Shown here: one piece after another, positions 3,458 through 41,337 of the stretch | Numbering within the stretch: position 1 is the stretch's first letter | Layout: every line of letters starts with the position of its first letter | Source: Planctomycetota bacterium | GTDB lineage: Bacteria > Planctomycetota > JAJSAM01 > JAJVHW01 | Length of the DNA: 64,000 bases | Reading direction: 5' to 3' | Assembly (NCBI GenBank): GCA_965248445.1 | Contig: CBDFJG010000004.1 | Span: 64,001-128,000 of the forward strand | The notes under the pieces: model-generated | The model's input: only the letters and a program-made list of their open reading frames with translations | The model's database searches: none | Told to the model about the DNA's origin: nothing | Made by a program: the position numbers and the translations under genes

Positions 3458-3880
3458 ATGTCCAACCAGATCGACGCCCTGCCGCCGCCGACGGGGGACT
3501 CCACGGCCGCTGTGGGGACCGCCACGCGCGAGTGCCCGGACGCCCGTTTCGAGGCCGGAGTCGCAGACTTCCTGCGGCACCTGGCCCAGGCGGGATGGGG
3601 CCTGTCTGCTCCTCTGGCGACGGCGCCGCCGGAGGTCACTGTTTGCCTGGTGGCGCGCCCCCCGCAACCCCGCGCCGGCACGCCGGGACCGCATCTCCTC
3701 TACGTGTACGGCCGTGAGACCGATCTGTGCGTGGACGACCTCTGGCGGATCGCGACCGATGCGCGCACGTCGGGCTGTGAGCACGCCGTCATGCTGTTGG
3801 CGCCCGACGCCGTGATCTCGGTGCCGCTGCGTGGCGCCGCCGCGCGCCTGCGCGTGCGCGTACTCCGCCTCAACGCCTAG
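3458..3880 (+). CDS. hypothetical protein
   Basis: 140-aa ORF with host-like codon usage. Its TAG stop lies in the CTAG target site of the IS1380. Confidence 0.55.
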   Translation: MSNQIDALPPPTGDSTAAVGTATRECPDARFEAGVADFLRHLAQAGWGLSAPLATAPPEVTVCLVARPPQPRAGTPGPHLLYVYGRETDLCVDDLWRIATDARTSGCEHAVMLLAPDAVISVPLRGAAARLRVRVLRLNA

Positions 3881-7129: not shown

Positions 7130-8798
7130 CCCGAATCGTTCACCAGCCGGGAATCTGAGCGGGCCGTCGTCTGTCTAAGTGCTCGTACTCGCTAGTACTT
7201 GCACCGACAGGAGCGCCGGCCCGATGACGACAGACTGTAGCCCGCAGGGGACCCTCTTCGCGGGCATCTGTGGACGCACCGCGGTGACGCGCTTCGACGC
7301 CGGTACCGTGACGAGCGACGGGGGCGTGCTGCTGCTCGAGCGGGTCGATCGTCGCATCGATCTGCTCTCGCGGTTTGCGCGCTGCTTCGGGGACCACCGG
7401 GACCCGCGTCGGGTCGAGCACACGGTCGGCCAGATGCTGCGTCAGCGGGTCTTCGGGCTGTGCGCGGGCTACGAGGATCTGGTGGACCACGACCATGTCG
7501 GCAAGGACCCGCTGTTTGCCGCGGCGTGCGGCAAGCGCGAGGGTGCTCTGGCCACGCACCCGACGCTCTCGCGGCTCGAGACCACGCAGCTCGGCGCCAC
7601 GGCACAGACGCGCTACGCCAAGATCGAGATGGACCAGGAGCGCGTGGACAGCGTGCTCAGCGACGTCTTCTGCGAGGCCATGGGGCCGGAGGATCCGGGC
7701 CTGCTCGTGCTGGACCTGGACCACTCCGACGTGCGGCTGCACGGCCGGCAGGAGGGCCGCTTCTTCCACGGCTACTACGGGCACTACTGCTACCTGCCGC
7801 TGTACGTCTTCTGCGGCGAGCACCTCTTGCTCGCTCGGCTCCAGACCGCTGACAGAGATCCCGCGCGCGGAGTCGTGGACGAGCTCCGTGCGCTGGTCTT
7901 ACGTCTGCGGCGCCGCTGGCCCCGGGCCAAGGTGCTCGTGCGCGCAGACTCGGGCTTTTGCCGCGAGGAGCTGATGGCCTGGTGCGAGGCTGCCGGCCAC
8001 TTCTACCTGCTGGGCATGGCGCGCAATGAGCGCCTTGAGCGACACGTCGAAGACGCGCTCGATGAGGCCGCAGCCCGTGCCGTGCAGACCGGCCGAGCAG
8101 CCCGGGTCTTTCGCGACTTTGCCTGGACCACGCTGGGGAGCTGGAGCCAGAGGCGTCGCGTGGTCGCCAAGGCCGAGCACCTGCCGGGCGGCAAGCGCAA
8201 TCCCCGCTTCGTGGTGACCAATCTGCCGCCTCGTAGCTGGAGCAGCAAGCGTCTCTACGAGCAGCTCTACTGCGCCCGGGGCGAGGCGGAGAATCGCATC
8301 AAGGAGCAGCAGCTCGAGCTCTTCGGCACCCGTCTGTCGGTGCACACGATGCAGGGCAACGCCGTGCGGATGGCCATGTCGGCCATGGCCTACGTCCTGA
8401 CCTGTGCGCTGCGACGCATCGGTCTCGCCGGCACCGAGATGGCGCGTGCGCAAGCCGGCACGATCCGCCTGCGGCTGCTCAAGATCGGCGCGCTCGTGCG
8501 GATCACGACGCGCCGGATCTGGGTCTCGATGTCCTCGTCGTGGCCCTGGCAGCACGTCTTCGAGCGCTGCGCGCAACGACTGCTGGCATCCCCGAAGCCG
8601 ACCTGACGTCCCGCCGCGCCGTCCGCCACACCACCGCCCGGCCTACGGTCTGCCCACACCGCAGAATCCGCGCCGTTTCGGCCGCTCACTCGCGTTGCCC
8701 TTGTGGCAACGACGACAGCATCCGCCCTCGCCTGGCCAAGATCTGACCCTGTGGACTCCGAAAGCACCGTCATCGCGACGTCTCGTGAACAGATGCGG
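7130..8798 (+). mobile_element. IS1380-family type A, copy 2 (1669 bp, inverted relative to copy 1)
   Basis: Same TIRs, CTAG at 7126-7129 and 8799-8802. About 3 substitutions versus copy 1 seen (e.g. ERVDRR vs ERTDRR). Confidence 0.95.
7224..8606 (+). CDS. IS1380-family DDE transposase
   Basis: Near-identical to 4073-5455. Confidence 0.95.
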   Translation: MTTDCSPQGTLFAGICGRTAVTRFDAGTVTSDGGVLLLERVDRRIDLLSRFARCFGDHRDPRRVEHTVGQMLRQRVFGLCAGYEDLVDHDHVGKDPLFAAACGKREGALATHPTLSRLETTQLGATAQTRYAKIEMDQERVDSVLSDVFCEAMGPEDPGLLVLDLDHSDVRLHGRQEGRFFHGYYGHYCYLPLYVFCGEHLLLARLQTADRDPARGVVDELRALVLRLRRRWPRAKVLVRADSGFCREELMAWCEAAGHFYLLGMARNERLERHVEDALDEAAARAVQTGRAARVFRDFAWTTLGSWSQRRRVVAKAEHLPGGKRNPRFVVTNLPPRSWSSKRLYEQLYCARGEAENRIKEQQLELFGTRLSVHTMQGNAVRMAMSAMAYVLTCALRRIGLAGTEMARAQAGTIRLRLLKIGALVRITTRRIWVSMSSSWPWQHVFERCAQRLLASPKPT

Positions 8799-9251
8799 CT
8801 AGTGGGTGATGAGGCCTTCCATGCCCTTGGCCTGATCGACCCAGCCCTCGACCTTCTTCGTGTCGGGTGCGACGCGCGCCAGCTTCTTCTCGGTGTTGAC
8901 CTCCAGCATCTTCGCGGCCAGGTTCTCGGCCTTGCGGTGCTTGAGCTCCTTCACCGTGTCGACGCCGGCGGCCTCGAGCAGCTCGGAGAACTGCGGGCCC
9001 ACGCCGTTGATGCGCATCAGGTCGGCCTTGTTCGTCCAGTTCAGGACGAGCTTCTCGCTGATGCCCGTGCTCTCGGCGATGGACGAGCGGCCCTGCTTGT
9101 TGCAGCACATCTCGAGCAGCTTGTCGGTCGTCGTGATGCCCGCCGTCTGCAGCTTCTCGCGGAAGCTCGGTCCGATGCCTTCGACTTCGTCGGTATTGTG
9201 CCCAGGCTCAAATCGGAGCGATGGGGCCGATAAAGAGTCCGATGGGTCCAC
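8799..9251 (-). CDS. DUF4332-domain (helix-hairpin-helix) protein; native N-terminus apparently replaced
   Basis: EVEGIGP, ADLMRINGVGPQFSELLEAAGVDTVKELKHRK and WVDQAK motifs. Similarity to the family begins near 9192. Confidence 0.85.
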   Translation of the reverse strand: MDPSDSLSAPSLRFEPGHNTDEVEGIGPSFREKLQTAGITTTDKLLEMCCNKQGRSSIAESTGISEKLVLNWTNKADLMRINGVGPQFSELLEAAGVDTVKELKHRKAENLAAKMLEVNTEKKLARVAPDTKKVEGWVDQAKGMEGLITH

Positions 9252-19299: not shown

Positions 19300-20342
19300 C
19301 ATGCATATCCGGTTAATGACCGCGCCCACTACATCTTGTGCTAGAAGGGCAGCGGGCTTGCAGGCTCGTCGGCGTAGACCTGTTCGTACGTGCGCGGCGG
19401 CGTCTTCGCCGCGATGCCGAGGACCGTCTGGAACGCTGCCTGCGGCGTGCGTCTCCTGTTGAACCGGAACGTGAACTCGTCGAGATACCGCTGCAGGTGC
19501 TTCTTCGAGACCCGGCCGTGGTGCGTGCCTACGAGCCAGGTCTTGAGGTTGGAGAAGACCAGGTGCAGGTGCCTCAGGACGTCCGCCTGCGCCGCGCCCA
19601 TCATCGTGGACTCGATCCCGTGCTCGTAGCCGAGTTTCTCGACTGCGTCGTAGGTCTCGTGGCCGTCGGTCACGACGAGCGCCCCACGCTCGATGCTGTC
19701 CTTGACGAACGCCAGCAGGTGCGGCTTCGATGAGGCCGGCACGTGGCGCAGCCGGATGCGTCCGGGCTGTGTGCCTCTCTTCGTCGGACGCACCTCGACC
19801 GCGCCGACCACGACGGCCTTGTCTGCCGCGGTGCGCTCCTCTCGGCCTCGAAACGGCGCTCCGATCAGCGCCTCGTCGACCTCGACGACGCCGAACAACT
19901 GCGCGCGCTCCGGCGCGACCATCGCAGATCGCAGTTTCTGGAGCATCTGGTACGCGGTCTCGTAGCGGGTCAGACCGAGCTGTCGCTGGAGTGCGAGCGC
20001 AGAGACGCCCCGCTTGTCCGTCGTCATCAAGTACGCGGCCCACATCCAGGACTTCAGCGGCAGCCGGCTGCGATGCAGCACTGTGCCCGCGGTGACCGAC
20101 GTGATCAGGTCGCAGCCCACGCACCGCATCGCTCTTCGATCTGGACGGGGCCAGTACTTCTTGCCGCCGCACCGGCGGCAGCGGAACCCGTCGGGCCAAC
20201 GACACTGCACGAGGTACTCGAGGCACTGCTCTTCCGTCGCGAACTGCTCCGTGAACTCCACGATGTTGCGAGGGTAGCCCGGCTTCGGCATGCGTCCGAG
20301 ACACTACCCCTTGGGGTCACGGTCGTCAACCGGATATGCATG
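19300..20342 (-). mobile_element. IS1595-family IS (ISSod11-group-like ends), copy 1 (1043 bp), no TSD
   Basis: TIR CATGCATATCCGGTT at both ends. Flanks CCTTCAGG and GTTTGGAC differ. Confidence 0.93.
19341..20291 (-). CDS. IS1595-family transposase
   Basis: N-terminal Zn ribbon, VEVDE, VVTDG and HLQRYLDEFTFRFNRR motifs. Confidence 0.95.
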   Translation of the reverse strand: MPKPGYPRNIVEFTEQFATEEQCLEYLVQCRWPDGFRCRRCGGKKYWPRPDRRAMRCVGCDLITSVTAGTVLHRSRLPLKSWMWAAYLMTTDKRGVSALALQRQLGLTRYETAYQMLQKLRSAMVAPERAQLFGVVEVDEALIGAPFRGREERTAADKAVVVGAVEVRPTKRGTQPGRIRLRHVPASSKPHLLAFVKDSIERGALVVTDGHETYDAVEKLGYEHGIESTMMGAAQADVLRHLHLVFSNLKTWLVGTHHGRVSKKHLQRYLDEFTFRFNRRRTPQAAFQTVLGIAAKTPPRTYEQVYADEPASPLPF

Positions 20343-20460
20343 GTTTGGACCCGGTGCACGTTGAGGCATCCGCTCGAGGACGACGCTGCCATCAGTTACG
20401 CGGCCTCAGCTTGCGCTGGGCCCGTTCAGCCACCGCAGTCGCCGCACCTTCGAGTTGGGA
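20343..20460 (-). ncRNA. putative guide (bridge/seek) RNA region of IS110 element 1, 3'-truncated by IS1595
   Basis: Long non-coding end downstream of the transposase (IS1111-type layout). Contains GTAACTGATG, a 9/10 match to the element's inferred flank. Confidence 0.55.
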
Positions 20461-20534
20461 GATGGGCATCGCCCGCGTAGGCGCGTTGCTCGGTCGATCA
20501 GGCTCCCGTGTTGTTCGTGGTGTTCAGTCGGTCA

Positions 20535-21578
20535 TCACGCCGCTCGAGCGAGCGGCTCGTACGCGCGGTCCTTCGTCCAGAGCGCGTGGAAGAGTACGGC
20601 GAGCTTGCGGGCCACCGCGACGGTCGCCCGCTTCTTCGCGTTCTTCCCGCCGCGCTCCGCCAGTGCCAATCCCCAGCGTCTCACGTCGCTGTCGGGCCCA
20701 TGCGGCCCGAGCACGTAGTGCGCGCACTGCACGAGCAGGCGGCGGAGCATTCGATCGCCACACTTCGTGATCCTCAGCTGTCGGTCGATCTTGCCCGACT
20801 GGTCCTGACGCGGCACCACGCCGATGTACGCTCCCACGTCGCGACTGCGGGAGAAACGCCCCGGGTCGTGGATGACGAGCACGTAGGCCAGCGCGGTCAG
20901 CGGCCCCACACCGGCGACCTGGCGCAGACGCTTCGTCATCGGATAGACCTCCTGGCAGAGTCGCGCGACGTGCTCGTCGTAGCGATCGATCGTCTTCGTG
21001 AGAGACTCGATCGCGTCCAGCAGTGGAGTCAGCGCGTCCCGCAGGACCTCGGGCACGGACTCGCGCACCCGCCGGTGGAAGCTCCTCGCAGAGCACGACG
21101 GCAGTCGATGCCCCAGCGACTTGACGGCGCCGCGTGCGGCATTCACGAGTTTCGTGCGCGCAGAGACCACGCGCTCCCGCGCGCGCAGCAGCGCCATGTC
21201 GGCCTGCATGGACTCGCCCCGGTGGACCACCGGATGCAGCAGGCCGGGATGCCCCGCACCGAGCTGCGCCAGCACCAGTGCGTCGCGCCGATCCGTCTTC
21301 TTCGGCGAGTCCCAGATCGCTCGCAGCCGTCGCGCGTCCGCCACGATCACGTCGTGGCCGTGGGACGCGACCAGCCGGCTGATCCACGGAGAGTGCGTCC
21401 CGCTCTCCATCACCACCTTGGACCGCTCCGTCTGCTCGAAGAACTTGCCGAGCGCCTTGCGTGTCGCCCCGACCCGTCCCTCCCCGACGACCTCCCCCGT
21501 CTTGCGGTCGAGCATGCAGACATGCACCACGCGATCACCCAGGTCCATCCCGATCACGAAACGTGTAGCCTTTGCCAT
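20535..21578 (-). CDS. IS110-family recombinase (element 1, non-coding region 3' of the gene)
   Basis: DEDD RuvC-like IGMDLG, VMESG, KTDRRDA; GVVPRQDQSG catalytic Ser loop; VAVARKLA. Confidence 0.95.
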   Translation of the reverse strand: MAKATRFVIGMDLGDRVVHVCMLDRKTGEVVGEGRVGATRKALGKFFEQTERSKVVMESGTHSPWISRLVASHGHDVIVADARRLRAIWDSPKKTDRRDALVLAQLGAGHPGLLHPVVHRGESMQADMALLRARERVVSARTKLVNAARGAVKSLGHRLPSCSARSFHRRVRESVPEVLRDALTPLLDAIESLTKTIDRYDEHVARLCQEVYPMTKRLRQVAGVGPLTALAYVLVIHDPGRFSRSRDVGAYIGVVPRQDQSGKIDRQLRITKCGDRMLRRLLVQCAHYVLGPHGPDSDVRRWGLALAERGGKNAKKRATVAVARKLAVLFHALWTKDRAYEPLARAA

Positions 21579-21669
21579 AGCCGGTTCCTCCTCGGGCTCG
21601 CAAGCCCGTCAGCGCCTCTGGAAACCGCTACGGGTTACACCGAGGCAGGGACCGGCCTTCTTGTATGAC

Positions 21670-21880
21670 GTCCACTCATGCCCGCGACCTACGGTGGACA
21701 GAGATCGACGAGAGCCGGGAGAGGGTCGCCGCGGCCTTCACGAGGCGCAGTCCTCGGAGATGAGATTGGCGCCCTCGACCGGCGACCCACGCTCGGACGG
21801 GATCCTGAGGCGCGCAGACGCGCGTCCTCGCATGAACAAGGATGAGTACGGTCGCCGGCTCCGAGGCTCCCGGTCCTCCT
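21670..21880 (+). ncRNA. IS110 bridge RNA (target-binding and donor-binding loops); ends approximate
   Basis: Two stem/internal-loop/stem modules. Guides: CGGCCTTC 21732-39, GAGATGAG 21757-64, ACGGGATC 21797-804, ACAAG 21836-40. Confidence 0.88.
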
Positions 21881-22924
21881 CGTCGCATGACAGGAGGTGC
21901 ACGATGCGCTACGCGGGGATAGACATCGCTTCGAAGAAGCACGTCGTGGCGGTGATGGACGAGGACGAAGAGATCCTGGTGCGGCCCACCGCCTTCGGTG
22001 AGGACGCACAGGGCTACGAGGAGCTCTTCGAGTTGCTCGGCGTCCCTCGAGACGTGCTCGTGGCCTTGGAGGCGACCGGGCACTACTGGCGCAACTTGGC
22101 GGCGGAGCTTCTCTCGCGCGGTTTCGCCATGGTGCTGATCAATCCGCTGCGGACCCACCGCTTCGCCGGCGAGGACCTGCAGCGGACCAAGACCGATGCC
22201 ATCGACGCCCTCGGGCTCGCCCGGTTCGCTCGCCAGAAACGCCCGGAGCCCACGCGGCTGCCCGACTCCGGCACCGAGGAACTGCGCGAGCTCGTCAGAC
22301 TCAGGGATCGCGTGGTCCAGGACTTTGGAGACCGGGTCCGCCGGCTTCACCGCTTGGTGGACCTGGGTTTCCCGGAGTTCACACGCCACGTCCGCACCCT
22401 CGACAGCGAACTCGCCACGGCGCTGCTCAACCGCCATCCCACCGCGCAGGCCTTTGTGGGTGTCTCGGTCAAGCGACTCGCCGCGCTCCATTACGACGGA
22501 CGTCACCGAGTCGGGCGGCAGCTTGCCCAAGACCTGGTCCGTGCAGCCAAGTCGTCCGTGGGCCGCCACCACGCCGAGGCCTATCGCACTCAGGTCCGGT
22601 ACGCCTGCGAGGATCTGGACTTGCTGCGCCGGCGCCTTCGCGACTTGGAGAAGCTGATCGGGGGAACCCTGGAGCACCACGAGGTCGGCAAGCTCCTCAC
22701 GACCATCGACGGCATCGGGCCACAGACCGCCGCGCGGCTCGTCGCGGAGCTGGGCGACATCACTCGTTTCCGCGACGCCAAGGCGCTGGCGTCATACATC
22801 GGGGTCGTCCCGGCACTCAAGCAGTCCGGACGCAACCAGGGCCAACGCGCCGCCATCACCCGCATCGGGCACGCCCGGCTGCGCAGGGCCCTGTGGATGC
22901 CCGTCCTGACCGCGGTGCGCAGGA

Positions 22925-23967
22925 CATGCATATCCGGTTGACGACCGTGACCCCAAGGGGTAGTGTCTCGGACGCATGCCGAAGCCGGGCTACCCTCGCA
23001 ACATCGTGGAGTTCACGGAGCAGTTCGCGACGGAAGAGCAGTGCCTCGAGTACCTCGTGCAGTGTCGTTGGCCCGACGGGTTCCGCTGCCGCCGGTGCGG
23101 CGGCAAGAAGTACTGGCCCCGTCCAGATCGAAGAGCGATGCGGTGCGTGGGCTGCGACCTGATCACGTCGGTCACCGCGGGCACAGTGCTGCATCGCAGC
23201 CGGCTGCCGCTGAAGTCCTGGATGTGGGCCGCGTACTTGATGACGACGGACAAGCGGGGCGTCTCTGCGCTCGCACTCCAGCGACAGCTCGGTCTGACCC
23301 GCTACGAGACCGCGTACCAGATGCTCCAGAAACTGCGATCTGCGATGGTCGCGCCGGAGCGCGCGCAGTTGTTCGGCGTCGTCGAGGTCGACGAGGCGCT
23401 GATCGGAGCGCCGTTTCGAGGCCGAGAGGAGCGCACCGCGGCAGACAAGGCCGTCGTGGTCGGCGCGGTCGAGGTGCGTCCGACGAAGAGAGGCACACAG
23501 CCCGGACGCATCCGGCTGCGCCACGTGCCGGCCTCATCGAAGCCGCACCTGCTGGCGTTCGTCAAGGACAGCATCGAGCGTGGGGCGCTCGTCGTGACCG
23601 ACGGCCACGAGACCTACGACGCAGTCGAGAAACTCGGCTACGAGCACGGGATCGAGTCCACGATGATGGGCGCGGCGCAGGCGGACGTCCTGAGGCACCT
23701 GCACCTGGTCTTCTCCAACCTCAAGACCTGGCTCGTAGGCACGCACCACGGCCGGGTCTCGAAGAAGCACCTGCAGCGGTATCTCGACGAGTTCACGTTC
23801 CGGTTCAACAGGAGACGCACGCCGCAGGCAGCGTTCCAGACGGTCCTCGGCATCGCGGCGAAGACGCCGCCGCGCACGTACGAACAGGTCTACGCCGACG
23901 AGCCTGCAAGCCCGCTGCCCTTCTAGCACAAGATGTAGTGGGCGCGGTCATTAACCGGATATGCATG
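22925..23967 (+). mobile_element. IS1595-family IS copy 2 with 8-bp TSD GCGCAGGA
   Basis: Same TIRs and length as copy 1. GCGCAGGA at 22917-22924 and 23968-23975. Confidence 0.97.
22976..23926 (+). CDS. IS1595-family transposase
   Basis: Protein identical to 19341-20291. Confidence 0.95.
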   Translation: MPKPGYPRNIVEFTEQFATEEQCLEYLVQCRWPDGFRCRRCGGKKYWPRPDRRAMRCVGCDLITSVTAGTVLHRSRLPLKSWMWAAYLMTTDKRGVSALALQRQLGLTRYETAYQMLQKLRSAMVAPERAQLFGVVEVDEALIGAPFRGREERTAADKAVVVGAVEVRPTKRGTQPGRIRLRHVPASSKPHLLAFVKDSIERGALVVTDGHETYDAVEKLGYEHGIESTMMGAAQADVLRHLHLVFSNLKTWLVGTHHGRVSKKHLQRYLDEFTFRFNRRRTPQAAFQTVLGIAAKTPPRTYEQVYADEPASPLPF

Positions 23968-24407
23968 GCGCAGGAACCCCTGGCTGCGCGCCTTCTACGA
24001 ACGGCTTCGGTCCCAGGGCAAGCTCCCGAAGGTCGCCCTCGTCGCGTCCATGCGAAAGCTCCTGGTCGCCGTCCACTGGGTGGCTCGAAACAAACAGCCC
24101 TTCGTCCCCCGGCCCACACCCGTGGCCACGTCGGCCACGCAGGTGCCCGCATGAGCCACGAGTCTTCCGAGCGAACTCGCGCGCGCTCCGCCGCCCCGGA
24201 TTCATGCCCGAGCCGACAGGCGAAGGCGTCGCACCACCCAACCTGTCCTCGCGGCCCGCCGAGCGCGGTCCCCGCGCGCAGGCGAGGCGGGCAGCGCCAA
24301 CAACGCTCTAAGAACCTTGGTCGAGAAGACGGGATCTCATCTCATCAGGTACTCCTCAAGATCGTCGAGCGAAAGCTCTTCGGGTAGGCGAGACGGTAGA
24401 CCCAGGT

Positions 24408-25064
24408 TCACTCGTCCGCGCCGCGGTGGCGCGTCGCCTCCTCGTCCACCCAGTCCTCCTCCTCGTAAGTCATGCCGCGACGACCGGGGACGCTTCGTGT
24501 GGGTCCCGCTCGATAGATCGGGCACGCGAGCGGTCCGTAGCAGAAGGTCTCGCGCCGGTGCCGCTTCCGGTCGCGGTTCCACTGGTCGATGATGATCTCT
24601 ACGGGCATCTCGCAGCCCCATACGCAGCTCGCGCAGCGCGCCGCGTAGGTACGAGCGGCGAGTCGTCGATGACCGCGTCGGCGGTACTCAGTGAGCGACG
24701 GCGCAAGGCCGTGCCAGGGCGGATCGTCGCCCTCGGTCATGCGCTCTCCGGGCGCGTGCTTCAGCGCGCTCACGCGGTAGAACTCCGCTGTCTCAGTCCG
24801 CGGATCGGCGACCGACACCGCCTTGCCCGACAGAGCGTCGCCAATGCGGAAATCGTGCTTCACGTGCTGCGACTTGCTGACGGCAACGGCGAACTCGTGG
24901 GGGTCACCATCGACCTCGCCGTCAAGCCGCAGGACGTATCCCAGGTAGGAGTGCGTGCGCTCGTCGAACGAGCGTGTGAGCCGGATGCGGGGCTGGACCG
25001 AAACGATGCGGCCCGACCACGAACGCTTCGGTCCAAGAGTCCGTCGCCGACGTCGCAGCGGCAC
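24408..25064 (-). CDS. conserved hypothetical protein with Cys cluster (start uncertain)
   Basis: VQPRIRLTRSFDER...CASCVWGC...ETFCYGPLACP; protein-like composition. Confidence 0.75.
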   Translation of the reverse strand: MPLRRRRRTLGPKRSWSGRIVSVQPRIRLTRSFDERTHSYLGYVLRLDGEVDGDPHEFAVAVSKSQHVKHDFRIGDALSGKAVSVADPRTETAEFYRVSALKHAPGERMTEGDDPPWHGLAPSLTEYRRRGHRRLAARTYAARCASCVWGCEMPVEIIIDQWNRDRKRHRRETFCYGPLACPIYRAGPTRSVPGRRGMTYEEEDWVDEEATRHRGADE

Positions 25065-25069
25065 AAGAC

Positions 25070-25143
25070 TAGCGGCGACCCGTTTCTGGATCCAGCCTCA
25101 GATCAACCTCGAATCGGGGCTCCTGGCCCCCGTGAACGGTTAC
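25070..25143 (-). mobile_element. isolated left end of an IS66-family element
   Basis: TIR GTAACCGTTCAC plus the subterminal CTGAGGCTGGATCCAG motif shared with the other IS66 left ends. Confidence 0.6.
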
Positions 25144-25291
25144 CCGCACCCGCCCCCAAGTGCATCCCCAAGTCGGAATGGAGGCGCGTCGCGAATTCCG
25201 CGAATACCGGCGAATGGACGATGGTAGCAAGTCGTTGAGGCACGTCCGGCTTCCCTGACTCAGAGCATTATGGGCGTTTCCCTCCCCCATC

Positions 25292-26036
25292 GTACCCGTT
25301 CACGCCTTCGTCCTGAGCCCGGATCCAGCCATCGGCGCTGGCGGTCGATCAAGAGGGTGTGGGCGAAGATCTTCCCAGCGATGTGGCGGAGCTGCGCGAG
25401 CTCGTCGGTCGCCTGCTGCGTCGCATCGCCGAGCTCGAGGGTCGAGAGCGCCAGCACTTGCGGCGCATCGGGCGCATCGAGCAGCTGGAGTCGCGCCTCA
25501 GGCGCGACTCCAGCACGTCCTCACGCCCTCCGTCGAGTGACGCTCCGTGGTCCAAGCGCCGCGGCCATCGCCGTCCGCCGTCTGGCAAGAAGCAGGGCGC
25601 TCAGCCCGGCCATCCGGGCAAGACGCGCAACCTCGTCGATCCAGGCGACGTCGATGAGATCGTCAACCACGAGCCGAGCGCGTGCCGCACATGGGGACAC
25701 GACGAGCTCGTGGACAGCGATCTTGCGCCTCGCCGCCACCAGGTGACCGAGATCTCGCCGCTCTTGGCGACGATCACCGAGCACCGCCTACACGGGCGGC
25801 TCTGCCGGCACTGCGGCGACGAGGTCTTCGCCGATCTGCCCGAAGGCGTGTCCCCCAGCGCCTTCGGGCCGCGGCTGCAGGCTCTGGTCGTCACCCTCGT
25901 GGCCGCCTACCAGCTGAGCCGTTCCGAGGCGGCACGTCTGCTCTCCGAGGCCTTCGACGTGAAGATCTCGGTCGGCAGCGTCAGCAACATCGAGCGGCGG
26001 ATGTCCCGGGCGCTCGAGGCCGCGTTCGAGCGGACG
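25292..26036 (+). mobile_element. truncated IS66-family element (5' part of transposase from 25359)
   Basis: TIR GTACCCGTTCAC; leucine zipper, SSRPPSSD, GAQPGH, Zn ribbon, FGPRL. The DDE region is missing. Confidence 0.88.
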
Positions 26037-26054
26037 CTTGAGCCGTTGCGCGGG

Positions 26055-26305
26055 ACCGCTGCACTATCGCTGCACAACGTCCGCCCGCTCCTGCGGCTTG
26101 TGCGGCTTGTGCAGCGAGGGGCACGCGTAAGTCCTTGCTGGACAACGATCTCTCGTTGCTTCGGGAGCAAGAGGCCGGAGGTTCAAATCCTCTCGCCCCG
26201 ACCACTTGTAACCATTGCCGCACGAGCGAGTTACGGCGACTTCGCGCGCCCCATTCGGACCCCGCGTTTCAGGCCGATTCCGGCTACCGCTGCACTACCG
26301 CTGCA
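26055..26305 (+). other. attP-like site: tRNA-derived core flanked by arm-type direct repeats
   Basis: ACCGCTGCACTA(T/C)CGCTGCA at 26055-26074 and 26286-26305, on either side of the tRNA fragment. Confidence 0.7.
26156..26204 (+). tRNA. 3' fragment of tRNA-Pro(CGG) (att core, not a complete tRNA)
   Basis: TTGC-TTCGGGA-GCAA anticodon arm, GGAGG-TTCAAAT-CCTCT T arm, CGCCCCG-A-CCA end. No D arm or 5' acceptor strand upstream. Confidence 0.88.
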
Positions 26306-26398
26306 GATCGTCACGCGACCGACGGGAGCGATCGACGCTGTGAGGTGGCGCTCTCCGTCGTCGGCGTCGCACAGGGGGCGCCCGTTACGATGGGGGGC

Positions 26399-26525
26399 AT
26401 GGCGACGCATCCCTTCTCGATCGGCGAACTGGCCCGAGCCGTGGGCGTCCCGACGTCCACGCTGCGCTACTCCGAGCGCGCGGGCATCCTGCGGCCTACG
26501 GGTCGGACCGGGGCGAACTACCGCC
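26399..26525 (+). pseudogene. MerR-family HTH fragment
   Basis: FSIGELARAVGVPTSTLRYSERAGILRP...ANYR, after which similarity is lost. Confidence 0.8.
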
Positions 26526-26575
26526 AGAGAACACCAGGAACCCGACTGCCATGCTGAACCTCCCCCCAATGGGCC

Positions 26576-26880
26576 GTGCTCACGACCCTGCTCCTGGCTT
26601 CGGTCGCTGCCACCGTTGGACTCGCCTTCACCTCAGGCGAGGTGTCGGCCAACGCAACGGACACCGTCATCTGCCCGCAGACCGGCGAAGAGATCTCCCA
26701 GGACGACTGCCCGCTCGTCGATGCGACTCGCCCGGACTGCCCTGGGAAGATCGAGTGCCCTGTGACCGGCGAACTCGTCTGCCGTGACCGCTGGACCGCT
26801 GCCCGCTGGAGGCCGAGGCTCAGGCAGCAGGGGCCGACGACGTCCCTGCGTGCTGCAAGCAGAAGTGATCCGACGAGGGG
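26576..26880 (+). pseudogene. small secreted Cys-rich protein, frameshifted remnant
   Basis: Signal-like N-terminus; repeated ICPQTGE / IECPVTGE motifs. Confidence 0.5.
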
Positions 26881-28471: not shown

Positions 28472-31173
28472 ATCGTCCCCGCGAGGCTTGGGAAGAGATC
28501 GTCGAGGCCGTCGCCAAACCCGCGCGTGACGGCGGGCGCTTCGTCAGTGGGCGCGGACTGCCCGGCATCGTCGGCAACGAGCCGGTACTGTGCCGCCTTG
28601 GTGTTCGAGTTGCGGCCGGCCACGATCCGGTGCTCTCCGAAGTGACGATCGCGCGCGGCTGAGAGCGCGCGGCCCAGCCGGATGAGCTGCGAGCGCTCGG
28701 ACTTGTCTCCGATCACCTGGCCGAGGAGATCCTGCTCTGTGGTGATCTGCAGCAGATCGCGCGAAGCGACCCACGCGCCGCCGTGCTGCTCCCACCACGC
28801 GGTGACGAGCTGCCGCCACTCTTGTCCTTCGGTGTCGGCGTGCTCGTAGAGGTCCTCGGCGTCGCCGAGGAACCCCTCGATCCCGGCATGGGCGAGCACA
28901 CCCCCGACGACCTCGGCCCAGCTCTCGAAGGAGCCGAGCGTCGCGCCGCACGCCGGACGCTCCGCGGCGATCCACGACTGCACGAGCACGAGGACCGCGT
29001 GGACGAGCGTCGCGCGGTTCTGACGCGCCCAATCCCTGAGGGGCGCGTGCTTGAAGCCCGTGCGCTCCCACGGGCGGTCGCGCTTTGCATCGAGCCGCAC
29101 GCGCACGCAGCGCCGCGCGATCTCCAGGGAGAGCCGCGGGTTGTTCGCGGTGACGAGCCACGTGGCTCGGTTCGGGAGGTCGATCATCTTCGTCTGGCCG
29201 AGCATCCGGTCGGACCAGGTCTCGGCCGTGAGCGCCGCCGCGAGCTGCGCCGAGTCGAGCCCGTGGCGGATGTTGTCGATGAGGATCAGCGGCTGCGCCC
29301 GGGCGAGGATCGAGGTGATCTTCTTGCGCGCCTCGTCCTCGTCCCGCGTGATCGTCGTCGGGTCGCACGGGCGGCCCAGTGCGACGATCGCGACGATGTC
29401 GGCGAGGAGGCCCTTGCCGCTCCCGGGTGTCGGGGCCTCGATGAGGTGGATCGGCGTGCAGCCACTGACCATCCGCCGGACGAACGGCAAGATGAGCGTC
29501 GCCACCGCGTGCGCGCGGTCCGAGGCCGCCGCGAACGGGAAGTCGACGAAGAGCTCGTCGAGGATGAGTTCGCGGGCAGCGCGCACGTCGTTGTCGGCCG
29601 GCTGCTTGGGCACCTCCGCGACATCGAGGTCCGGCGCACGGTGGAGCCAGAGCCGCGCTTCCCTGTGGTAGCCGGGCGTGGAGACGAGGCGCCCCTCCGA
29701 GTCGAAGACCGGCGTCGCGACGATTGCTTCGAGGGGCGGGAGATCTTCGGCGGGATTGACGAGCATGTCGCGCGCGACGTCCTTGGGTGGCGGGGTGTCG
29801 AGGACTGCGTCCTGCGTGACGCGGACCCAGTTGGCGACGCGGAACAGGTGCCCGAACATCGCCGCCTCCTCGACGGTCTCGATGCGCAGCCCCGCCTCGG
29901 CCGTGCCGAGCCGTACCACGATGCCCGAGCGGACGAAGAGCGCGGGGCGCTTGTTCGTCGCGTGGACGACCCGCCAGGCGTCGGCGAGGACGTCGCGGAG
30001 TTGGCGGTTGTTCACGCGGATGCGGGGCCGGGAGGCGTTGCGTGGAGCGGGAGGCGGCTTCGGCAACGCGACGCCCGAGTATCGGGCGACGAGCGCCATC
30101 GCCCCGCGGAAGTCGGTCGCCGTCCCGTGCTCGACCAGGAAGTCGAAAACCGAGCTCGTCTTCCCTGAGATGAACGAGTGGAACACGCCACGCTCGGCAT
30201 CCCCCGTGCCGTCCGCGACGCCTGCCGAGGGGTTCGTATCGCCGGAGGGGGACGAGGGATCCCGGCACTCCATCCACGCGGGACCCGACGACCTGCCCGT
30301 GAGCCAGGCGCTGTAGACGGACTCCAGGGGAAGCGCGTCGAGCGCTTGGCGCCGCCAGCCCGCCCACGTTGCGCCGTGTTCGGACGATGTGTTCGCATCG
30401 ACGCCCGGGGCCACCGCGGCCTCCAGCGCGGCGACGTCGGCCAACACGCGCGCGACGTCGGCCGTGTCCGCGACGTCGAGGTCCTCGGGCGTGAAGGGGG
30501 CGAGGTGGCCGGCGTCTCCCGGGCGGTAGAAGAGGTTGGCGCCCTCGGGAGCCCCGTCCCACCACGGGAGCCACACGAGGTTCCCGTAGCCGTTCTTCCT
30601 GATCTTGGCCTGCTTTGGGAACACCTCGATCCCGCGTGCGGATCGCGGGTCCGCCACACCGCCGTTGGCGAGAGGGGCGTCCGTCGGTGCGAGCGCGCGC
30701 CCCAGGGCCTGCGCCTTCGCGGCCGGGATCGGTGGGTCGAAGAAGCACCACAGGTGCCAGCCGTTCCCGCCGCCCGATCGCTCGAGGTACGCCGGGAGGC
30801 CCGCTGCAGCGAACCGGTCGTAGGCCGTGCGCGCGACGGCCGCCGGATCCGCCAGCGCCTCGGCGTGGCCGGCGCCGTCGAAGTCGAGGCAGAGCCAGCG
30901 GGTGCTGTTGTCCGGCGCGGGGCAGTAGCTTCCGATGCGGAAACGGCCGGACATCGCGCCGGCGCCGCGGCTGCTGCGGAAGCGGACCTTGGCGATGGGC
31001 GCGGCGTCACCGAGCAGGTGTCCGCGCAACAGCCCGTCCAGCGTGCCGTTGGCATCCACCGGACGAGGCGTGCCGCGGTCGGTCCGGACGGCCACGCAGT
31101 CCGTGCGGTTGAGAAACCGTCGCTGGAAGAGGTCGATCGCAGCGTCAGCGGCGGGGCGAGCGCACGTCGTCAT
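28468..31173 (-). CDS. AEP-superfamily (TOTE-like) primase fused to a P-loop helicase-like domain
   Basis: LCLDFD, LERSGGGNGWHLW, IEVFPKQ and GNLVWLP primase motifs; PGSGKG, LIDNI, TANN in the C-terminal part. Confidence 0.85.
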   Translation of the reverse strand: MTTCARPAADAAIDLFQRRFLNRTDCVAVRTDRGTPRPVDANGTLDGLLRGHLLGDAAPIAKVRFRSSRGAGAMSGRFRIGSYCPAPDNSTRWLCLDFDGAGHAEALADPAAVARTAYDRFAAAGLPAYLERSGGGNGWHLWCFFDPPIPAAKAQALGRALAPTDAPLANGGVADPRSARGIEVFPKQAKIRKNGYGNLVWLPWWDGAPEGANLFYRPGDAGHLAPFTPEDLDVADTADVARVLADVAALEAAVAPGVDANTSSEHGATWAGWRRQALDALPLESVYSAWLTGRSSGPAWMECRDPSSPSGDTNPSAGVADGTGDAERGVFHSFISGKTSSVFDFLVEHGTATDFRGAMALVARYSGVALPKPPPAPRNASRPRIRVNNRQLRDVLADAWRVVHATNKRPALFVRSGIVVRLGTAEAGLRIETVEEAAMFGHLFRVANWVRVTQDAVLDTPPPKDVARDMLVNPAEDLPPLEAIVATPVFDSEGRLVSTPGYHREARLWLHRAPDLDVAEVPKQPADNDVRAARELILDELFVDFPFAAASDRAHAVATLILPFVRRMVSGCTPIHLIEAPTPGSGKGLLADIVAIVALGRPCDPTTITRDEDEARKKITSILARAQPLILIDNIRHGLDSAQLAAALTAETWSDRMLGQTKMIDLPNRATWLVTANNPRLSLEIARRCVRVRLDAKRDRPWERTGFKHAPLRDWARQNRATLVHAVLVLVQSWIAAERPACGATLGSFESWAEVVGGVLAHAGIEGFLGDAEDLYEHADTEGQEWRQLVTAWWEQHGGAWVASRDLLQITTEQDLLGQVIGDKSERSQLIRLGRALSAARDRHFGEHRIVAGRNSNTKAAQYRLVADDAGQSAPTDEAPAVTRGFGDGLDDLFPSLAGTM

Positions 31174-39491: not shown

Positions 39492-39668
39492 GAAACTGGT
39501 CCTCCTGTCCGTCCGCCCGGCTCCGAGGAGTCGGACCCCGCAACGTATCAGGAGGCGACGACGCGCTCAGGGCTCCGTGGCTGCTCCGGCCGGGATGTTG
39601 CGGGATGTCGGACCCCCACATCCCGCAACGATTACCGCAACGGAAGTCCTGCTCTGACAGCCACTTAG

Positions 39669-41337
39669 CCGCATCTGTTCACGAGACGTCGCGATGACGG
39701 TGCTTTCGGAGTCCACAGGGTCAGATCTTGGCCAGGCGAGGGCGGATGCTGTCGTCGTTGCCACAAGGGCAACGCGAGTGAGCGGCCGAAACGGCGCGGA
39801 TTCTGCGGTGTGGGCAGACCGTAGGCCGGGCGGTGGTGTGGCGGACGGCGCGGCGGGACGTCAGGTCGGCTTCGGGGATGCCAGCAGTCGTTGCGCGCAG
39901 CGCTCGAAGACGTGCTGCCAGGGCCACGACGAGGACATCGAGACCCAGATCCGGCGCGTCGTGATCCGCACGAGCGCGCCGATCTTGAGCAGCCGCAGGC
40001 GGATCGTGCCGGCTTGCGCACGCGCCATCTCGGTGCCGGCGAGACCGATGCGTCGCAGCGCACAGGTCAGGACGTAGGCCATGGCCGACATGGCCATCCG
40101 CACGGCGTTGCCCTGCATCGTGTGCACCGACAGACGGGTGCCGAAGAGCTCGAGCTGCTGCTCCTTGATGCGATTCTCCGCCTCGCCCCGGGCGCAGTAG
40201 AGCTGCTCGTAGAGACGCTTGCTGCTCCAGCTACGAGGCGGCAGATTGGTCACCACGAAGCGGGGATTGCGCTTGCCGCCCGGCAGGTGCTCGGCCTTGG
40301 CGACCACGCGACGCCTCTGGCTCCAGCTCCCCAGCGTGGTCCAGGCAAAGTCGCGAAAGACCCGGGCTGCTCGGCCGGTCTGCACGGCACGGGCTGCGGC
40401 CTCATCGAGCGCGTCTTCGACGTGTCGCTCAAGGCGCTCATTGCGCGCCATGCCCAGCAGGTAGAAGTGGCCGGCGGCCTCGCACCAGGCCATCAGCTCC
40501 TCGCGGCAAAAGCCCGAGTCTGCGCGCACGAGCACCTTGGCCCGGGGCCAGCGGCGCCGCAGACGTAAGACCAGCGCACGGAGCTCGTCCACGACTCCGC
40601 GCGCGGGATCTCTGTCAGCGGTCTGGAGCCGAGCGAGCAAGAGGTGCTCGCCGCAGAAGACGTACAGCGGCAGGTAGCAGTAGTGCCCGTAGTAGCCGTG
40701 GAAGAAGCGGCCCTCCTGCCGGCCGTGCAGCCGCACGTCGGAGTGGTCCAGGTCCAGCACGAGCAGGCCCGGATCCTCCGGCCCCATGGCCTCGCAGAAG
40801 ACGTCGCTGAGCACGCTGTCCACGCGCTCCTGGTCCATCTCGATCTTGGCGTAGCGCGTCTGTGCCGTGGCGCCGAGCTGCGTGGTCTCGAGCCGCGAGA
40901 GCGTCGGGTGCGTGGCCAGAGCACCCTCGCGCTTGCCGCACGCCGCGGCAAACAGCGGGTCCTTGCCGACATGGTCGTGGTCCACCAGATCCTCGTAGCC
41001 CGCGCACAGCCCGAAGACCCGCTGACGCAGCATCTGGCCGACCGTGTGCTCGACCCGACGCGGGTCCCGGTGGTCCCCGAAGCAGCGCGCAAACCGCGAG
41101 AGCAGATCGATGCGACGATCGGTCCGCTCGAGCAGCAGCACGCCCCCGTCGCTCGTCACGGTACCGGCGTCGAAGCGCGTCACCGCGGTGCGTCCACAGA
41201 TGCCCGCGAAGAGGGTCCCCTGCGGGCTACAGTCTGTCGTCATCGGGCCGGCGCTCCTGTCGGTGCAAGTACTAGCGAGTACGAGCACTTAGACAGACGA
41301 CGGCCCGCTCAGATTCCCGGCTGGTGAACGATTCGGG
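39669..41337 (-). mobile_element. IS1380-family type A, copy 3 (1669 bp)
   Basis: Same TIRs. Flanks TTAG (39665-68) and CTAG (41338-41) do not match. Confidence 0.95.
39861..41243 (-). CDS. IS1380-family DDE transposase
   Basis: Protein identical to copy 1. Confidence 0.95.
   Translation of the reverse strand: MTTDCSPQGTLFAGICGRTAVTRFDAGTVTSDGGVLLLERTDRRIDLLSRFARCFGDHRDPRRVEHTVGQMLRQRVFGLCAGYEDLVDHDHVGKDPLFAAACGKREGALATHPTLSRLETTQLGATAQTRYAKIEMDQERVDSVLSDVFCEAMGPEDPGLLVLDLDHSDVRLHGRQEGRFFHGYYGHYCYLPLYVFCGEHLLLARLQTADRDPARGVVDELRALVLRLRRRWPRAKVLVRADSGFCREELMAWCEAAGHFYLLGMARNERLERHVEDALDEAAARAVQTGRAARVFRDFAWTTLGSWSQRRRVVAKAEHLPGGKRNPRFVVTNLPPRSWSSKRLYEQLYCARGEAENRIKEQQLELFGTRLSVHTMQGNAVRMAMSAMAYVLTCALRRIGLAGTEMARAQAGTIRLRLLKIGALVRITTRRIWVSMSSSWPWQHVFERCAQRLLASPKPT

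What the first reader, a model, noticed from the sequence alone, without database searches (positions are those of the whole stretch)
21653..24343. IS110 bridge RNA readable in full, apparently programmed to target the terminus of a different IS110 element (RNA-guided IS-on-IS parasitism)
Seen: the non-coding left end of element 2 folds into two stem/internal-loop modules. Loop 1 carries CGGCCTTC (21732-39), identical to the left flank plus core C at 21653-60, and GAGATGAG (21757-64), the reverse complement of core plus right flank CTCATCTC at 24336-43. Loop 2 carries ACGGGATC (21797-804), identical to the right end at 24329-36, and ACAAG (21836-40), the reverse complement of the left end CTTGT at 21660-64. 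Known: this is the LTG/RTG/LDG/RDG layout with a CT core described for IS621 bridge RNA. Inference: the reconstructed target CGGCCTT-CT-CATCT lies ~82 bp upstream of the start codon of IS110 element 1, within the last ~14 bp of that element's inferred end. Element 2 therefore seems programmed against another IS110's end, which would give it a safe, multicopy landing site and probably block the victim's excision.
Basis: partly seen in the sequence, partly recalled or inferred. Interest (0 to 1): 0.92.

Follow-up and report, generated by a model that had tools for sequence, protein, structure and literature searches.

The report
Guide-RNA transposon aimed at another transposon's end
A small jumping gene that picks its landing site with its own guide RNA is aimed at the tip of a second, unrelated-looking family of jumping genes, and every copy in this genome sits exactly there; the mechanism is the known bridge-RNA one, the choice of victim is the new part.

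Summary
All four guide strings are at the stated coordinates, in two stem/internal-loop modules.

Element 2 is a 1,627-bp IS110-group element, split in the window by an IS1595. Its left end encodes a bridge RNA. A covariance model built from 64 relatives, none from this genome, finds it at window 21711-21867 with 148.7 bits.

In relatives the two strands of loop 1 are hypervariable and covary with their own flanks (0 of 2,000 permutations reach the observed match, on either side).

In this genome the loop spells CGGCCTT-CT-CATCTC. That site lies 8 nt inside the left tip of an IS1111-like family (element 1), in the middle of its left subterminal inverted repeat.

All 4 of 4 element-2 copies sit there, in one orientation. 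The victims are of two types only 78-83% alike, while the element-2 copies differ by at most 1 nt.

Uninterrupted victims in other genomes, and one empty solo end in this genome, carry the contiguous target.

None of 105 relatives of element 2 sits beside an element-1-like gene.

That the insertion disables the victim is inference.

IS110-family elements that target ends of other mobile elements are already in print (IS1383, IS4321/IS5075). This scan has also noted similar cases on other DNA. I rate it a new member of a known kind.

The parts
21660..24337 (+). Element 2: IS110-group insertion sequence. It is 1,627 bp without the IS1595 and its 8-bp duplication, and is bounded by the CT core at 21660-21661 and 24336-24337.
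   Evidence: Four copies in the genome share these ends, with identical junction strings. Copies differ by at most 1 nt.
21711..21867 (+). Bridge RNA gene: target-binding and donor-binding modules.
   Evidence: Covariance model R1, built from 64 relatives without this genome, scores 148.7 bits, E 1e-26, full length. RNAalifold gives 32 pairs, 15 with compensatory changes. No Rfam family matched 19500-26000.
21670..21699 (+). Putative 5' stem-loop of the RNA (GTCCAC ... GTGGAC).
   Evidence: Read. The same hairpin position is conserved in relatives in the alignment. Its role is inferred by analogy.
21732..21739 (+). Left target guide (CGGCCTT plus C of the core), on the 5' strand of internal loop 1.
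   Evidence: Identical to 21653-21660. This column block is hypervariable in relatives and covaries with their left flanks: 3.86 of 7 against 2.44 permuted, 0 of 2,000 permutations.
21757..21764 (+). Right target guide (GAGATGAG), on the 3' strand of internal loop 1.
   Evidence: Reverse complement of 24336-24343. The four variable positions covary with relatives' right flanks: 3.05 of 4 against 1.40 permuted, 0 of 2,000 permutations.
21797..21804 (+). Left donor guide (ACGGGATC), on the 5' strand of internal loop 2.
   Evidence: Identical to the right end 24329-24336. Most relatives have ACGGTATC in both the loop and the right end. L055 and L154 have ACGGCATC in both. This element has ACGGGATC in both.
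21836..21840 (+). Right donor guide (ACAAG), on the 3' strand of internal loop 2.
   Evidence: Reverse complement of CTTGT at 21660-21664. Both are conserved in relatives, so there is no covariation to test.
21904..22924 (+). Element-2 recombinase gene, N-terminal piece, cut by the IS1595.
   Evidence: Pfam PF01548 (2e-37) and PF02371 (1e-25). Intact 399-aa ORFs exist in the copies at G000:C4:1972655-1974281 and G000:C3:478470-480096. The protein matches the ISCro4 and IS621 recombinases at E 3e-40 and 4e-37.
22925..23967 (+). IS1595-family element inserted in the recombinase gene. Its target duplication GCGCAGGA lies at 22917-22924 and 23968-23975.
   Evidence: Pfam PF12762 and PF12760 on ORF 22976-23926. 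Junctions. About 8 near-identical copies in the genome.
23976..24154 (+). Element-2 recombinase gene, C-terminal piece, with stop codon at 24152-24154.
   Evidence: Colinear with the intact copy.
24317..24322 (+). -35-like hexamer TTGGTC in the right end. After circularisation it would lie 17 nt from TATGAC (21664-21669).
   Evidence: The same arrangement is seen in all 57 distinct right-end/left-end junctions reconstructed (56 relatives plus this element): TTGAC(A/G) or TTGCT, 17 nt, TATGAx. Promoter function is inferred from IS621 (PMC11208160, passages read).
20343..21659 (-). Element 1 (IS1111-like, type A), body. Recombinase gene 20535-21578, 5' leader 21579-21659. The far (right) end is lost at 20343 to an IS1595 copy (19300-20342) that has no target duplication.
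   Evidence: Pfam PF01548 and PF02371. The copies on C1 and C3 run about 90 nt further. Relatives are listed.
24338..24345 (-). Severed 8-nt left tip of element 1 (ATGAGATG on its own strand).
   Evidence: Right flanks of the four element-2 copies share only this tip: CATCTCAT in three, CATCCCAT in one. Tips of multi-copy relatives are defined.
21654..21659 (-). Inner half of element 1's left subterminal inverted repeat (AAGGCC on its strand). The outer half, GATG, is at 24338-24341, and the AG/CT core lies between them.
   Evidence: 13 of 19 relatives have GATGAGAAGGCC upstream and its inverted copy GGCCTTCTCAT 262-609 nt beyond the end of the protein match. Multi-copy relatives confirm this.

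Best explanation
Element 2 is a bridge-RNA-guided IS110-group insertion sequence.

How it most likely works:
- After excision as a circle, the joined right and left ends probably form a sigma-70-type promoter that transcribes the left-end RNA (inferred).
- Loop 2 of the RNA pairs with the element's own joined ends (ACGGGAT-CT-TGT).
- Loop 1 pairs with the target CGGCCTT-CT-CATCTC.
- The DEDD/serine recombinase exchanges strands at the CT core.

The target is not host DNA. It is the middle of the left subterminal inverted repeat of an IS1111-like insertion-sequence family (element 1), 8 nt from that element's tip and 82 nt upstream of its recombinase gene.

Each insertion therefore cuts the victim's tip off from its body and puts 1.6 kb between any outside or junction promoter and the victim's gene.

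Shown: the RNA's structure, the guide/flank code in relatives, the site, the orientation, and occupancy of all four victim left ends that carry a recombinase gene.

Inferred: RNA expression, activity today, and any harm to the victim.
For: Guides and ends:
- The guide strings match the flanks and ends exactly: 7+2+6 nt for the target and 7+2+3 nt for the donor. The chance product is 1.6e-8.
- The layout follows the published rule, read as passages in PMC11208160: the left guide equals the top strand, the right guide is the reverse complement, and the core is included in both.

Recombinase:
- Pfam PF01548 and PF02371.
- E 3e-40 and 4e-37 to the solved ISCro4 and IS621 recombinases.

RNA:
- Alignment of 65 sequences: 32 pairs, 15 compensatory.
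- An independent covariance model scores 148.7 bits on the window and the same on the other three copies.

Guide code in relatives:
- Left: 3.86 of 7 against 2.44 permuted.
- Right: 3.05 of 4 against 1.40 permuted.
- 0 of 2,000 permutations reach either value.
- The left donor guide and the right end covary in three variants.

Occupancy:
- 4 of 4 element-2 copies sit at the same site and in the same orientation.
- Victim types A and B are 78-83% alike, while element-2 copies differ by at most 1 nt.
- The four right flanks differ beyond 10-18 nt.

The target is a transposon end:
- The motif is conserved upstream of related recombinase genes in 14 of 19 relatives from other genera of the phylum. 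An inverted copy is present at the far end in 13 of 19.
- Tips are defined by 3+3+2 copies in three genomes.

Empty site:
- G000:C4:1674409 carries the contiguous target with one mismatch. Its outer 1,086 bp are 99.5% identical to the right flank of the C1 copy.

Retargeting is peculiar to this element:
- 0 of 105 relatives carry the target motif at either boundary of the element. The three 1-mismatch matches found lie inside the recombinase gene.
- None of the 105 lies beside an element-1-like gene. The single tblastn hit, L091, is only 30% identical.

Other samples:
- Contigs of coded runs X5 and X6, from two other studies, bridge 21605/21607 to 21953/22140.
Against: - No RNA data. No holder run is on record as RNA, so expression was not tested.
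- No circle junction or fresh insertion was seen. Only contigs, not raw reads, could be laid.
- The victims on C1 and C3 are 99.6% identical (5 differences in 1,317 nt). Those two nests may descend from one insertion, which leaves a firm minimum of two independent events (types A and B). Three or four are likely from the different tips and flanks.
- One near-cognate site (C4:1674409) is empty, although the same one-mismatch variant is occupied on C1.
- Left-guide matches in relatives are imperfect. Only 12 of 56 have 6 or 7 of 7. Either my register is off for some, or the left side tolerates mismatches.
- 30 of 99 relatives could not be parsed by my pattern and were left out.
- The single-sequence fold is only about 2 SD better than shuffles and does not give loop 1 cleanly.
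Confidence: 0.88

Rival explanations
1. One old insertion, then copying. Element 2 entered one element-1 copy once, and the nest was then multiplied as a unit, by the victim's own transposition or by segmental duplication. The identity of the element-2 parts would be kept up by gene conversion. On this reading there is no continuing targeting.
For: The victims on C1 and C3 are 99.6% identical. No element-1 gene copy without element 2 exists in this genome. The genome is full of repeats that could drive conversion and rearrangement.
Against: Victim types A and B are 78-83% alike, and win against C4b is 97.8%, yet element 2 differs by at most 1 nt in 1,627. Conversion would have to stop exactly at the CT cores four times. 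The four right flanks differ. The guides match the site exactly, and in relatives the guides track the flanks.
Confidence: 0.06
2. The nest is a cooperating composite. The two divergently oriented recombinase genes form one mobile unit, and the split repeat is part of its design rather than damage.
For: The two are always adjacent and divergent. The victim's 8-nt tip remains next to element 2, so the outer ends of the pair are still victim ends.
Against: 0 of 105 element-2 relatives and 0 of 19 element-1 relatives examined show the pairing. The parts of the pair have very different divergence. Three of the four victims are otherwise damaged: far end lost in the window, truncated to 182 codons at C4b, and another IS in the leader at C3.
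Confidence: 0.04
3. Coincidence, or a host sequence. The matching strings are chance, or the target is a host regulatory motif that merely lies near IS110-family genes.
For: The genome is GC-rich, and short GC-rich strings recur. For example, CGGCCTTC occurs 5 times in the window on both strands.
Against: The joint chance is about 1e-8. The motif marks the boundary of multi-copy elements in three other genomes and has an inverted partner at their far end. The exact 15-mer does not occur anywhere else in the 5.4-Mb genome.
Confidence: 0.02

Closest known systems
IS621 / ISCro4 bridge recombinase with bridge RNA (IS110 group; PMC11208160 passages read, PMC11208158 listing only; structures 8wt6, 9t56)
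   Same: - DEDD plus serine-domain recombinase.
- RNA encoded in the left end.
- Two internal loops, each with a left guide equal to the top strand and a right guide complementary to it.
- CT core included in all four guides.
- Promoter-like hexamers split across the joined ends.
   Different: - About 400-aa protein against 328-341 aa. Sequence similarity is at the level of E 1e-37 to 1e-40, not close.
- The RNA is not matched by any Rfam family.
- The natural target is another transposon's subterminal repeat, not a REP element.
IS1383, reported to integrate specifically into the inverted repeats of IS1384 in Pseudomonas putida H (Muller et al. 2001; only the title was seen, in the reference list of PMC11208160)
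   Same: An IS110-family element whose specific target is the terminal repeat of another insertion sequence.
   Different: - The paper was not read here, so details are unknown to me.
- That work predates the guide-RNA mechanism.
- Here the victim is itself an RNA-guided IS110-family (IS1111-type) element, and the guide can be read.
[quoted passage not shown]
   Same: One position and one orientation inside the end repeat of another mobile element.
   Different: - Those are IS1111-type elements attacking Tn3-family transposons.
- Here an IS110-type element attacks an IS1111-type element.
IS1111-attC group (Tetu and Holmes 2008; Post and Hall 2009; titles seen in the reference list of PMC11187229)
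   Same: A family member specialised on a repeated recombination site carried by mobile DNA.
   Different: The target there is an integron cassette site, not a transposon end.

Membership tests
IS110-group bridge-RNA insertion sequences (element 2) | [quoted passage not shown] | tested here: met
   PF01548 2.1e-37, PF02371 1.3e-25. ISCro4 3e-40, IS621 4e-37. In that alignment GID, EAT, KTDxxDA and SG are shared. That these are the catalytic residues is recalled, not tested.
IS110-group bridge-RNA insertion sequences (element 2) | Structured non-coding RNA encoded in the left end, with the left end longer than the right end | tested here: met
   The left end is 244 nt (21660-21903) and the right end 183 nt (24155-24337). 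The RNA model hit lies at 21711-21867.
IS110-group bridge-RNA insertion sequences (element 2) | Two internal loops whose strands match target and donor, core included | tested here: met
   The rule was taken from PMC11208160.
IS110-group bridge-RNA insertion sequences (element 2) | Guides covary with flanks across relatives | tested here: met
   0 of 2,000 permutations reach the observed match on either side (56 and 58 de-duplicated loci; 30 of 99 relatives were not parsed and were left out).
IS110-group bridge-RNA insertion sequences (element 2) | Same core dinucleotide at both junctions and no long terminal inverted repeats | tested here: met
   CT at 21660-21661 and 24336-24337 in all four copies. 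The ends CTTGTATGAC and GACGGGATCT are not inverted repeats.
IS110-group bridge-RNA insertion sequences (element 2) | Promoter rebuilt across the joined ends of the circle | tested here: inconclusive
   Hexamers with 17-nt spacing are present in 57 of 57 distinct junctions. This is a motif only; no transcript data.
IS110-group bridge-RNA insertion sequences (element 2) | RNA is made, binds the recombinase and directs recombination | not testable with these tools
   No RNA run listed. An assay is needed.
IS1111-group insertion sequences (element 1, the victim) | DEDD recombinase of the IS110 family | tested here: met
   PF02371 5.9e-21, PF01548 6.9e-17.
IS1111-group insertion sequences (element 1, the victim) | Subterminal inverted repeats of 7-17 bp (definition from PMC11208160) | tested here: met
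   GATGAGAAGGCC and GGCCTTCTCAT are both present in 13 of 19 relatives, in 8 copies from three genomes, and in the C1 copy of this genome. The window's copy has lost its far end.
IS1111-group insertion sequences (element 1, the victim) | Right end much longer than left end, with the guide RNA in the right end | tested here: inconclusive
   The left end is about 90-120 nt. The inverted repeat lies 262-609 nt beyond the end of the protein match. A string equal to the right tip recurs inside the right end and changes with it: ATGGAAGGC in G350, CATAGAAG in G177. No partner for the left tip was found, and no model was built.
IS110-family elements that target ends of other mobile elements (IS1383, IS4321/IS5075) | All copies at one position and orientation inside the end repeat of another element | tested here: met
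   4 of 4 copies.

The most novel reading that the evidence does not exclude
This may be an RNA-guided conflict between two guide-RNA transposon lineages. An IS110-type element has retargeted its loop to the one string that a whole IS1111-type family cannot easily change: its own subterminal repeat, conserved across the phylum. By splitting that repeat it would immobilise every copy it enters, which would explain why no undamaged element 1 is left in this genome.

The mismatched pairing of victim bodies with tips and flanks also suggests that occupied and empty ends recombine with each other, by homology or by the recombinase itself, and so rearrange the chromosome. Examples are the C1 tip and flank belonging to a third, still-empty end type, and the C3 tip and flank resembling that of C4b.
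Probability: 0.3. Interest if true: 0.7.

Novelty: new member of a known kind. Interest (0 to 1): 0.48.

Why it matters
- It is a clean natural example of loop reprogramming. Within one RNA family the stems are fixed, while the loop-1 strands (7 nt and 4 nt) change with the landing site.
- In this genome the landing site is the conserved end repeat of a rival transposon family.
- That gives a ready-made pair for testing whether bridge recombinases are used in transposon-against-transposon competition.
- It also gives a 64-sequence alignment and model of a bridge RNA that no Rfam family matched.
- It is not a new mechanism. Targeting of other elements' ends by this family has been in print since 2001-2003.

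Tried and rejected
- Rfam scan of 19500-26000 at E up to 1: only a chance miRNA match outside the element.
- The search for related loci with the element-1 protein in genome contigs: nothing. Relatives were then found with the genome search.
- DNA search of 61 related genomes with element 2: only G037 holds a real relative (69% identity). Its guides point elsewhere and no element-1-like gene lies beside it. The short G005 match (L003) is a leader-like fragment without a gene.
- Covariance-model hit at window 29295-29408 (24 bits, E 0.005): it lies inside a 901-aa ORF on the other strand and was rejected as chance.
- ORFs behind the empty end at C4:1674409: no IS110-family domain, so it is a solo end.
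- Search for the victim's own guides in its right end: only a left-donor-like string was found. Not pursued.
- Sequencing runs: no RNA holder is listed. Parts of the stretch without contig cover in X5, X6, X7 and X9 mean nothing. Joints listed inside the IS1595 come from other organisms' IS1595 relatives.
- Literature: four searches and term look-ups in PMC11208160, PMC11187229 and 10.64898/2026.08.14.744561 gave no report of an IS110-group element targeting the subterminal repeat of an IS1111-group element. This covers only open-access text. Supplementary tables of natural targets were not opened and may hold such cases.
- No structure or complex prediction was run; none was needed.
Full report
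OBSERVATION

- CGGCCTTC at 21732-21739 equals 21653-21660.
- GAGATGAG at 21757-21764 is the reverse complement of 24336-24343.
- ACGGGATC at 21797-21804 equals 24329-24336.
- ACAAG at 21836-21840 is the reverse complement of 21660-21664.

From the composition of the 244-nt left end, the expected numbers are 0.007, 0.003, 0.005 and 0.16, with a product of 1.6e-8. Only 3 of 200,000 shuffles held both loop-1 octamers.

The single-sequence fold gives loop 2 cleanly. It gives loop 1 only in part, with a z-score of about -2. The structure therefore rests on comparative data, described below.

WHAT THE PIECES ARE

- ORF 21904-22938 carries PF01548 and PF02371. It is cut at 22925 by an IS1595-family element (22925-23967, target duplication GCGCAGGA).
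- The minus-strand ORF 20535-21578 is a second IS110-family recombinase, element 1.
- The window is G000:C4:64001-128000, in a 5.4-Mb, 68.8% G+C genome of 4 contigs.

COPIES IN THE GENOME

Element 2 has four copies:
- the window copy;
- C4:1972655-1974281, intact at 1,627 bp;
- C3:478470-480096, intact;
- C1:580464-584679, carrying an IS1595 at another place and a 1.53-kb IS near its right end.

The copies differ by at most 1 nt. The two intact ones keep a 399-aa ORF.

All four have the same 40 nt on the left, which is the leader of an element-1-type gene. On the right they share only CATCTCAT (three copies) or CATCCCAT (one copy) before diverging. C4b and C3 share 18 nt. The junction strings occur exactly four times each.

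The victims fall into two types:
- Type A: window and C4b, 97.8% alike.
- Type B: C1 and C3, 99.6% alike.
- A against B: 78-83%.

So at least two insertions were independent, one into type A and one into type B. Three or four are likely from the differing tips and flanks. C1 and C3 could descend from a single event.

THE TARGET IS THE END OF A TRANSPOSON FAMILY

Relatives of the element-1 protein occur in 32 of 401 genomes sampled from the phylum at E 1e-40 or better, with 38-56% identity for full-length matches. I examined 19 of the 30 loci returned. I left out those at contig ends, partial matches and the window's own locus.

- 14 of 19 have GATGAGAAGGCC (2 mismatches or fewer) 87-267 nt upstream of the gene. 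The sequence 5' of AGATGGGATGAG differs from genome to genome. The other 5 show variants by eye.
- 13 of 19 also have the inverted copy, GGCCTTCTCAT, 262-609 nt beyond the end of the protein match.
- Copies of one element at different sites fix the tips. These were three copies in G350, three in G177 and two in G001. The element starts ATGGGATGAGAAGGCC just after an AG and ends ...GGCCTTCTCATGGAAG(GC) just before an AG.

This is the IS1111-type architecture as defined in PMC11208160: subterminal inverted repeats of 7-17 bp and a long right end (passages read).

Element 2's core therefore lies 8 nt inside the victim's left tip, in the middle of its left subterminal repeat.

Among the 19 relatives, the 15-nt target is exact in 1, has one mismatch in 5 and two mismatches in 7. 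The guide is thus aimed at the most conserved string of the family.

In this genome the exact 15-mer does not occur. The only one-mismatch site, C4:1674409, is an uninterrupted left end with no recombinase gene behind it. Its outer 1,086 bp are 99.5% identical to the right flank of the C1 copy. This is a natural empty-site comparison: it shows flank-ATGGGATG-AG-AAGGCCGG contiguous, with a single core.

THE RNA AND ITS CODE

Relatives of the element-2 protein came from 25 genome contigs and 80 metagenome contigs, at 54-74% identity. The named records are Myxococcota, Proteobacteria, Rokubacteria and Acidobacteria MAGs.

None of the 105 lies beside an element-1-like gene; the one tblastn hit is 30% identical. 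None has the target motif at a boundary of the element: the three 1-mismatch matches found lie inside the recombinase gene.

Their left ends align over the whole RNA. Stems are nearly invariant or change in a compensatory way: 32 pairs, 15 with both-sided changes. The 5' strand of loop 1 (7 nt) and four positions of its 3' strand are hypervariable.

I could parse the loops in 69 of 99 relatives. The other 30 did not fit my pattern and were dropped.

After removing duplicates:
- The left strand matches the 7 nt before the element at 3.86 of 7, against 2.44 when flanks are permuted (56 loci).
- The right strand matches the flank after the element at 3.05 of 4 variable positions, against 1.40 (58 loci).
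- 0 of 2,000 permutations reach either value.

This element scores 7 of 7 and 4 of 4.

The left donor guide is ACGGTATC in most relatives, and so is their right end. L055 and L154 have ACGGCATC in both places. This element has ACGGGATC in both places.

A covariance model built from 64 relatives without this genome finds window 21711-21867 at 148.7 bits. It scores the other three copies equally, and G037's relative at 131.7 bits.

The strand rule agrees with PMC11208160: the left guide equals the top strand, the right guide is complementary, and the core is included.

The recombinase matches the solved ISCro4 and IS621 proteins at E 3e-40 and 4e-37.

Joining the right end to the left end gives TTGGTC, 17 nt, TATGAC. 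The same arrangement appears in all 57 distinct junctions reconstructed. This matches the promoter described for the IS621 circle. It is a motif-level inference only.

OTHER SAMPLES

Short contigs from sediment metagenomes of other studies bridge the left junction:
- X5: 21607-21953, 6 differences.
- X6: 21605-22140, 22 differences. Of the 22, 21 are listed, and all of those lie in the coding part from 21900 on.
- X7: a contig covers 24222-24347 and then runs on unlike the window, that is, just past the victim's tip.

These are contigs. They show presence only.

MECHANISM AND LIMITS

The best reading, at about 0.88, is ordinary bridge-RNA-guided insertion with a loop programmed for another transposon's subterminal repeat.

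What it does to the victim is inferred. The tip stays beside element 2, so the outer ends of the pair are still victim ends. But the repeat is split, and 1.6 kb now separates the tip from the gene.

PMC13626964 (abstract only) reports that excision uses the same recombinase-RNA complex reading across both junctions. How a split repeat would fare in that reaction cannot be said from sequence.

All four victims are occupied, and three have further damage. This fits a conflict but does not prove one.

No RNA evidence, circle junction or fresh insertion was available.

COMPARISON AND NOVELTY

The system is a member of the IS110-group bridge-RNA elements. All sequence-level defining features were met; activity was not testable.

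Targeting the end repeats of other mobile elements is in print for this family. IS1383 targets the IS1384 repeats, and IS4321/IS5075 target Tn21-family repeats. Only the titles were seen, in the reference lists of PMC11208160 and PMC11187229.

Four literature searches found no report of an IS110-type element aimed at an IS1111-type subterminal repeat. Supplementary target tables were not opened.

This scan's own notes list similar cases on other DNA: IS110 elements in another IS110's guide-RNA gene, in MITE tips, and in transposon-end repeats. I did not check those.

Verdict: a real and well-supported feature. It is a new member of a known kind, of moderate interest.

Noticed in passing
window 19300-20342 and 22925-23967: Two copies of one IS1595-family element lie within 3 kb. 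The one inside element 2 has an 8-bp target duplication. The other abuts element 1 without a duplication, and element 1's far end (about 90 nt plus its right repeat) is missing there. This suggests an IS1595-mediated deletion or rearrangement.
   Followed up: partly
whole genome G000, for example window 53404-54935 and 57393-58872: The genome is crowded with insertion sequences. A 1.53-kb element with ends GGTACCCGTTCAG... has about 45 near-identical copies, and related families at 66-78% identity have dozens more. One copy sits in element 2 on C1 and one relative sits in the leader of element 1 on C3.
   Followed up: partly
window 3878-4869, 7810-8801, 39653-40657 (from genome coordinates): Another repeat of about 1 kb has more than 25 copies at 99-100% identity. 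It was seen because one copy lies 1.4 kb from the empty element-1 end at C4:1674409. It was not characterised.
   Followed up: no
G000:C4:1672000-1675500 (L166) and G000:C1:579384-580466: A 1,086-bp stretch is duplicated at 99.5%. In C4 it abuts an empty solo left end of a third element-1 type. In C1 it abuts element 2, beyond which lies a type-B victim body. The C1 nest therefore looks recombinant, with the tip and flank of one victim type and the body of another.
   Followed up: partly
right flanks of element 2 at G000:C4:1974282 and G000:C3:478469: These two copies share 18 nt after the core (CATCTCATCACCAACGCC), although their victim bodies are of different types (A and B). Possible causes are shared target preference of the victims or exchange of flanks between element-2 copies.
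   Followed up: no
G000:C2:855575 and G000:C3:295663: Two further copies of the victim's right-end repeat context (GCTGAACATCCATGAGAAGGCCTCTTGTGT) occur without an adjacent element-1 gene match. They are probably solo right ends.
   Followed up: no
window about 25290-25366: A stretch of about 77 nt is repeated more than 70 times in the genome at 75-82% identity. In other places it lies next to copies of the 1.3-1.5-kb IS families, so it is probably an IS end. ORF 25359-26765 follows it.
   Followed up: no
L156-L158 (G350): The element-1 relatives of G350 are inserted in a GGAGACAGAGAC-type tandem repeat, so this victim family also has repeated landing sites of its own.
   Followed up: no
window 21605-22140 in run X6: In the metagenome variant of element 2, 21 of the 22 differences are listed and all of those lie in the first 200 nt of the coding sequence. 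At most one lies in the 295 nt that hold the junction and the RNA gene. The RNA part appears more constrained than the start of the protein.
   Followed up: no
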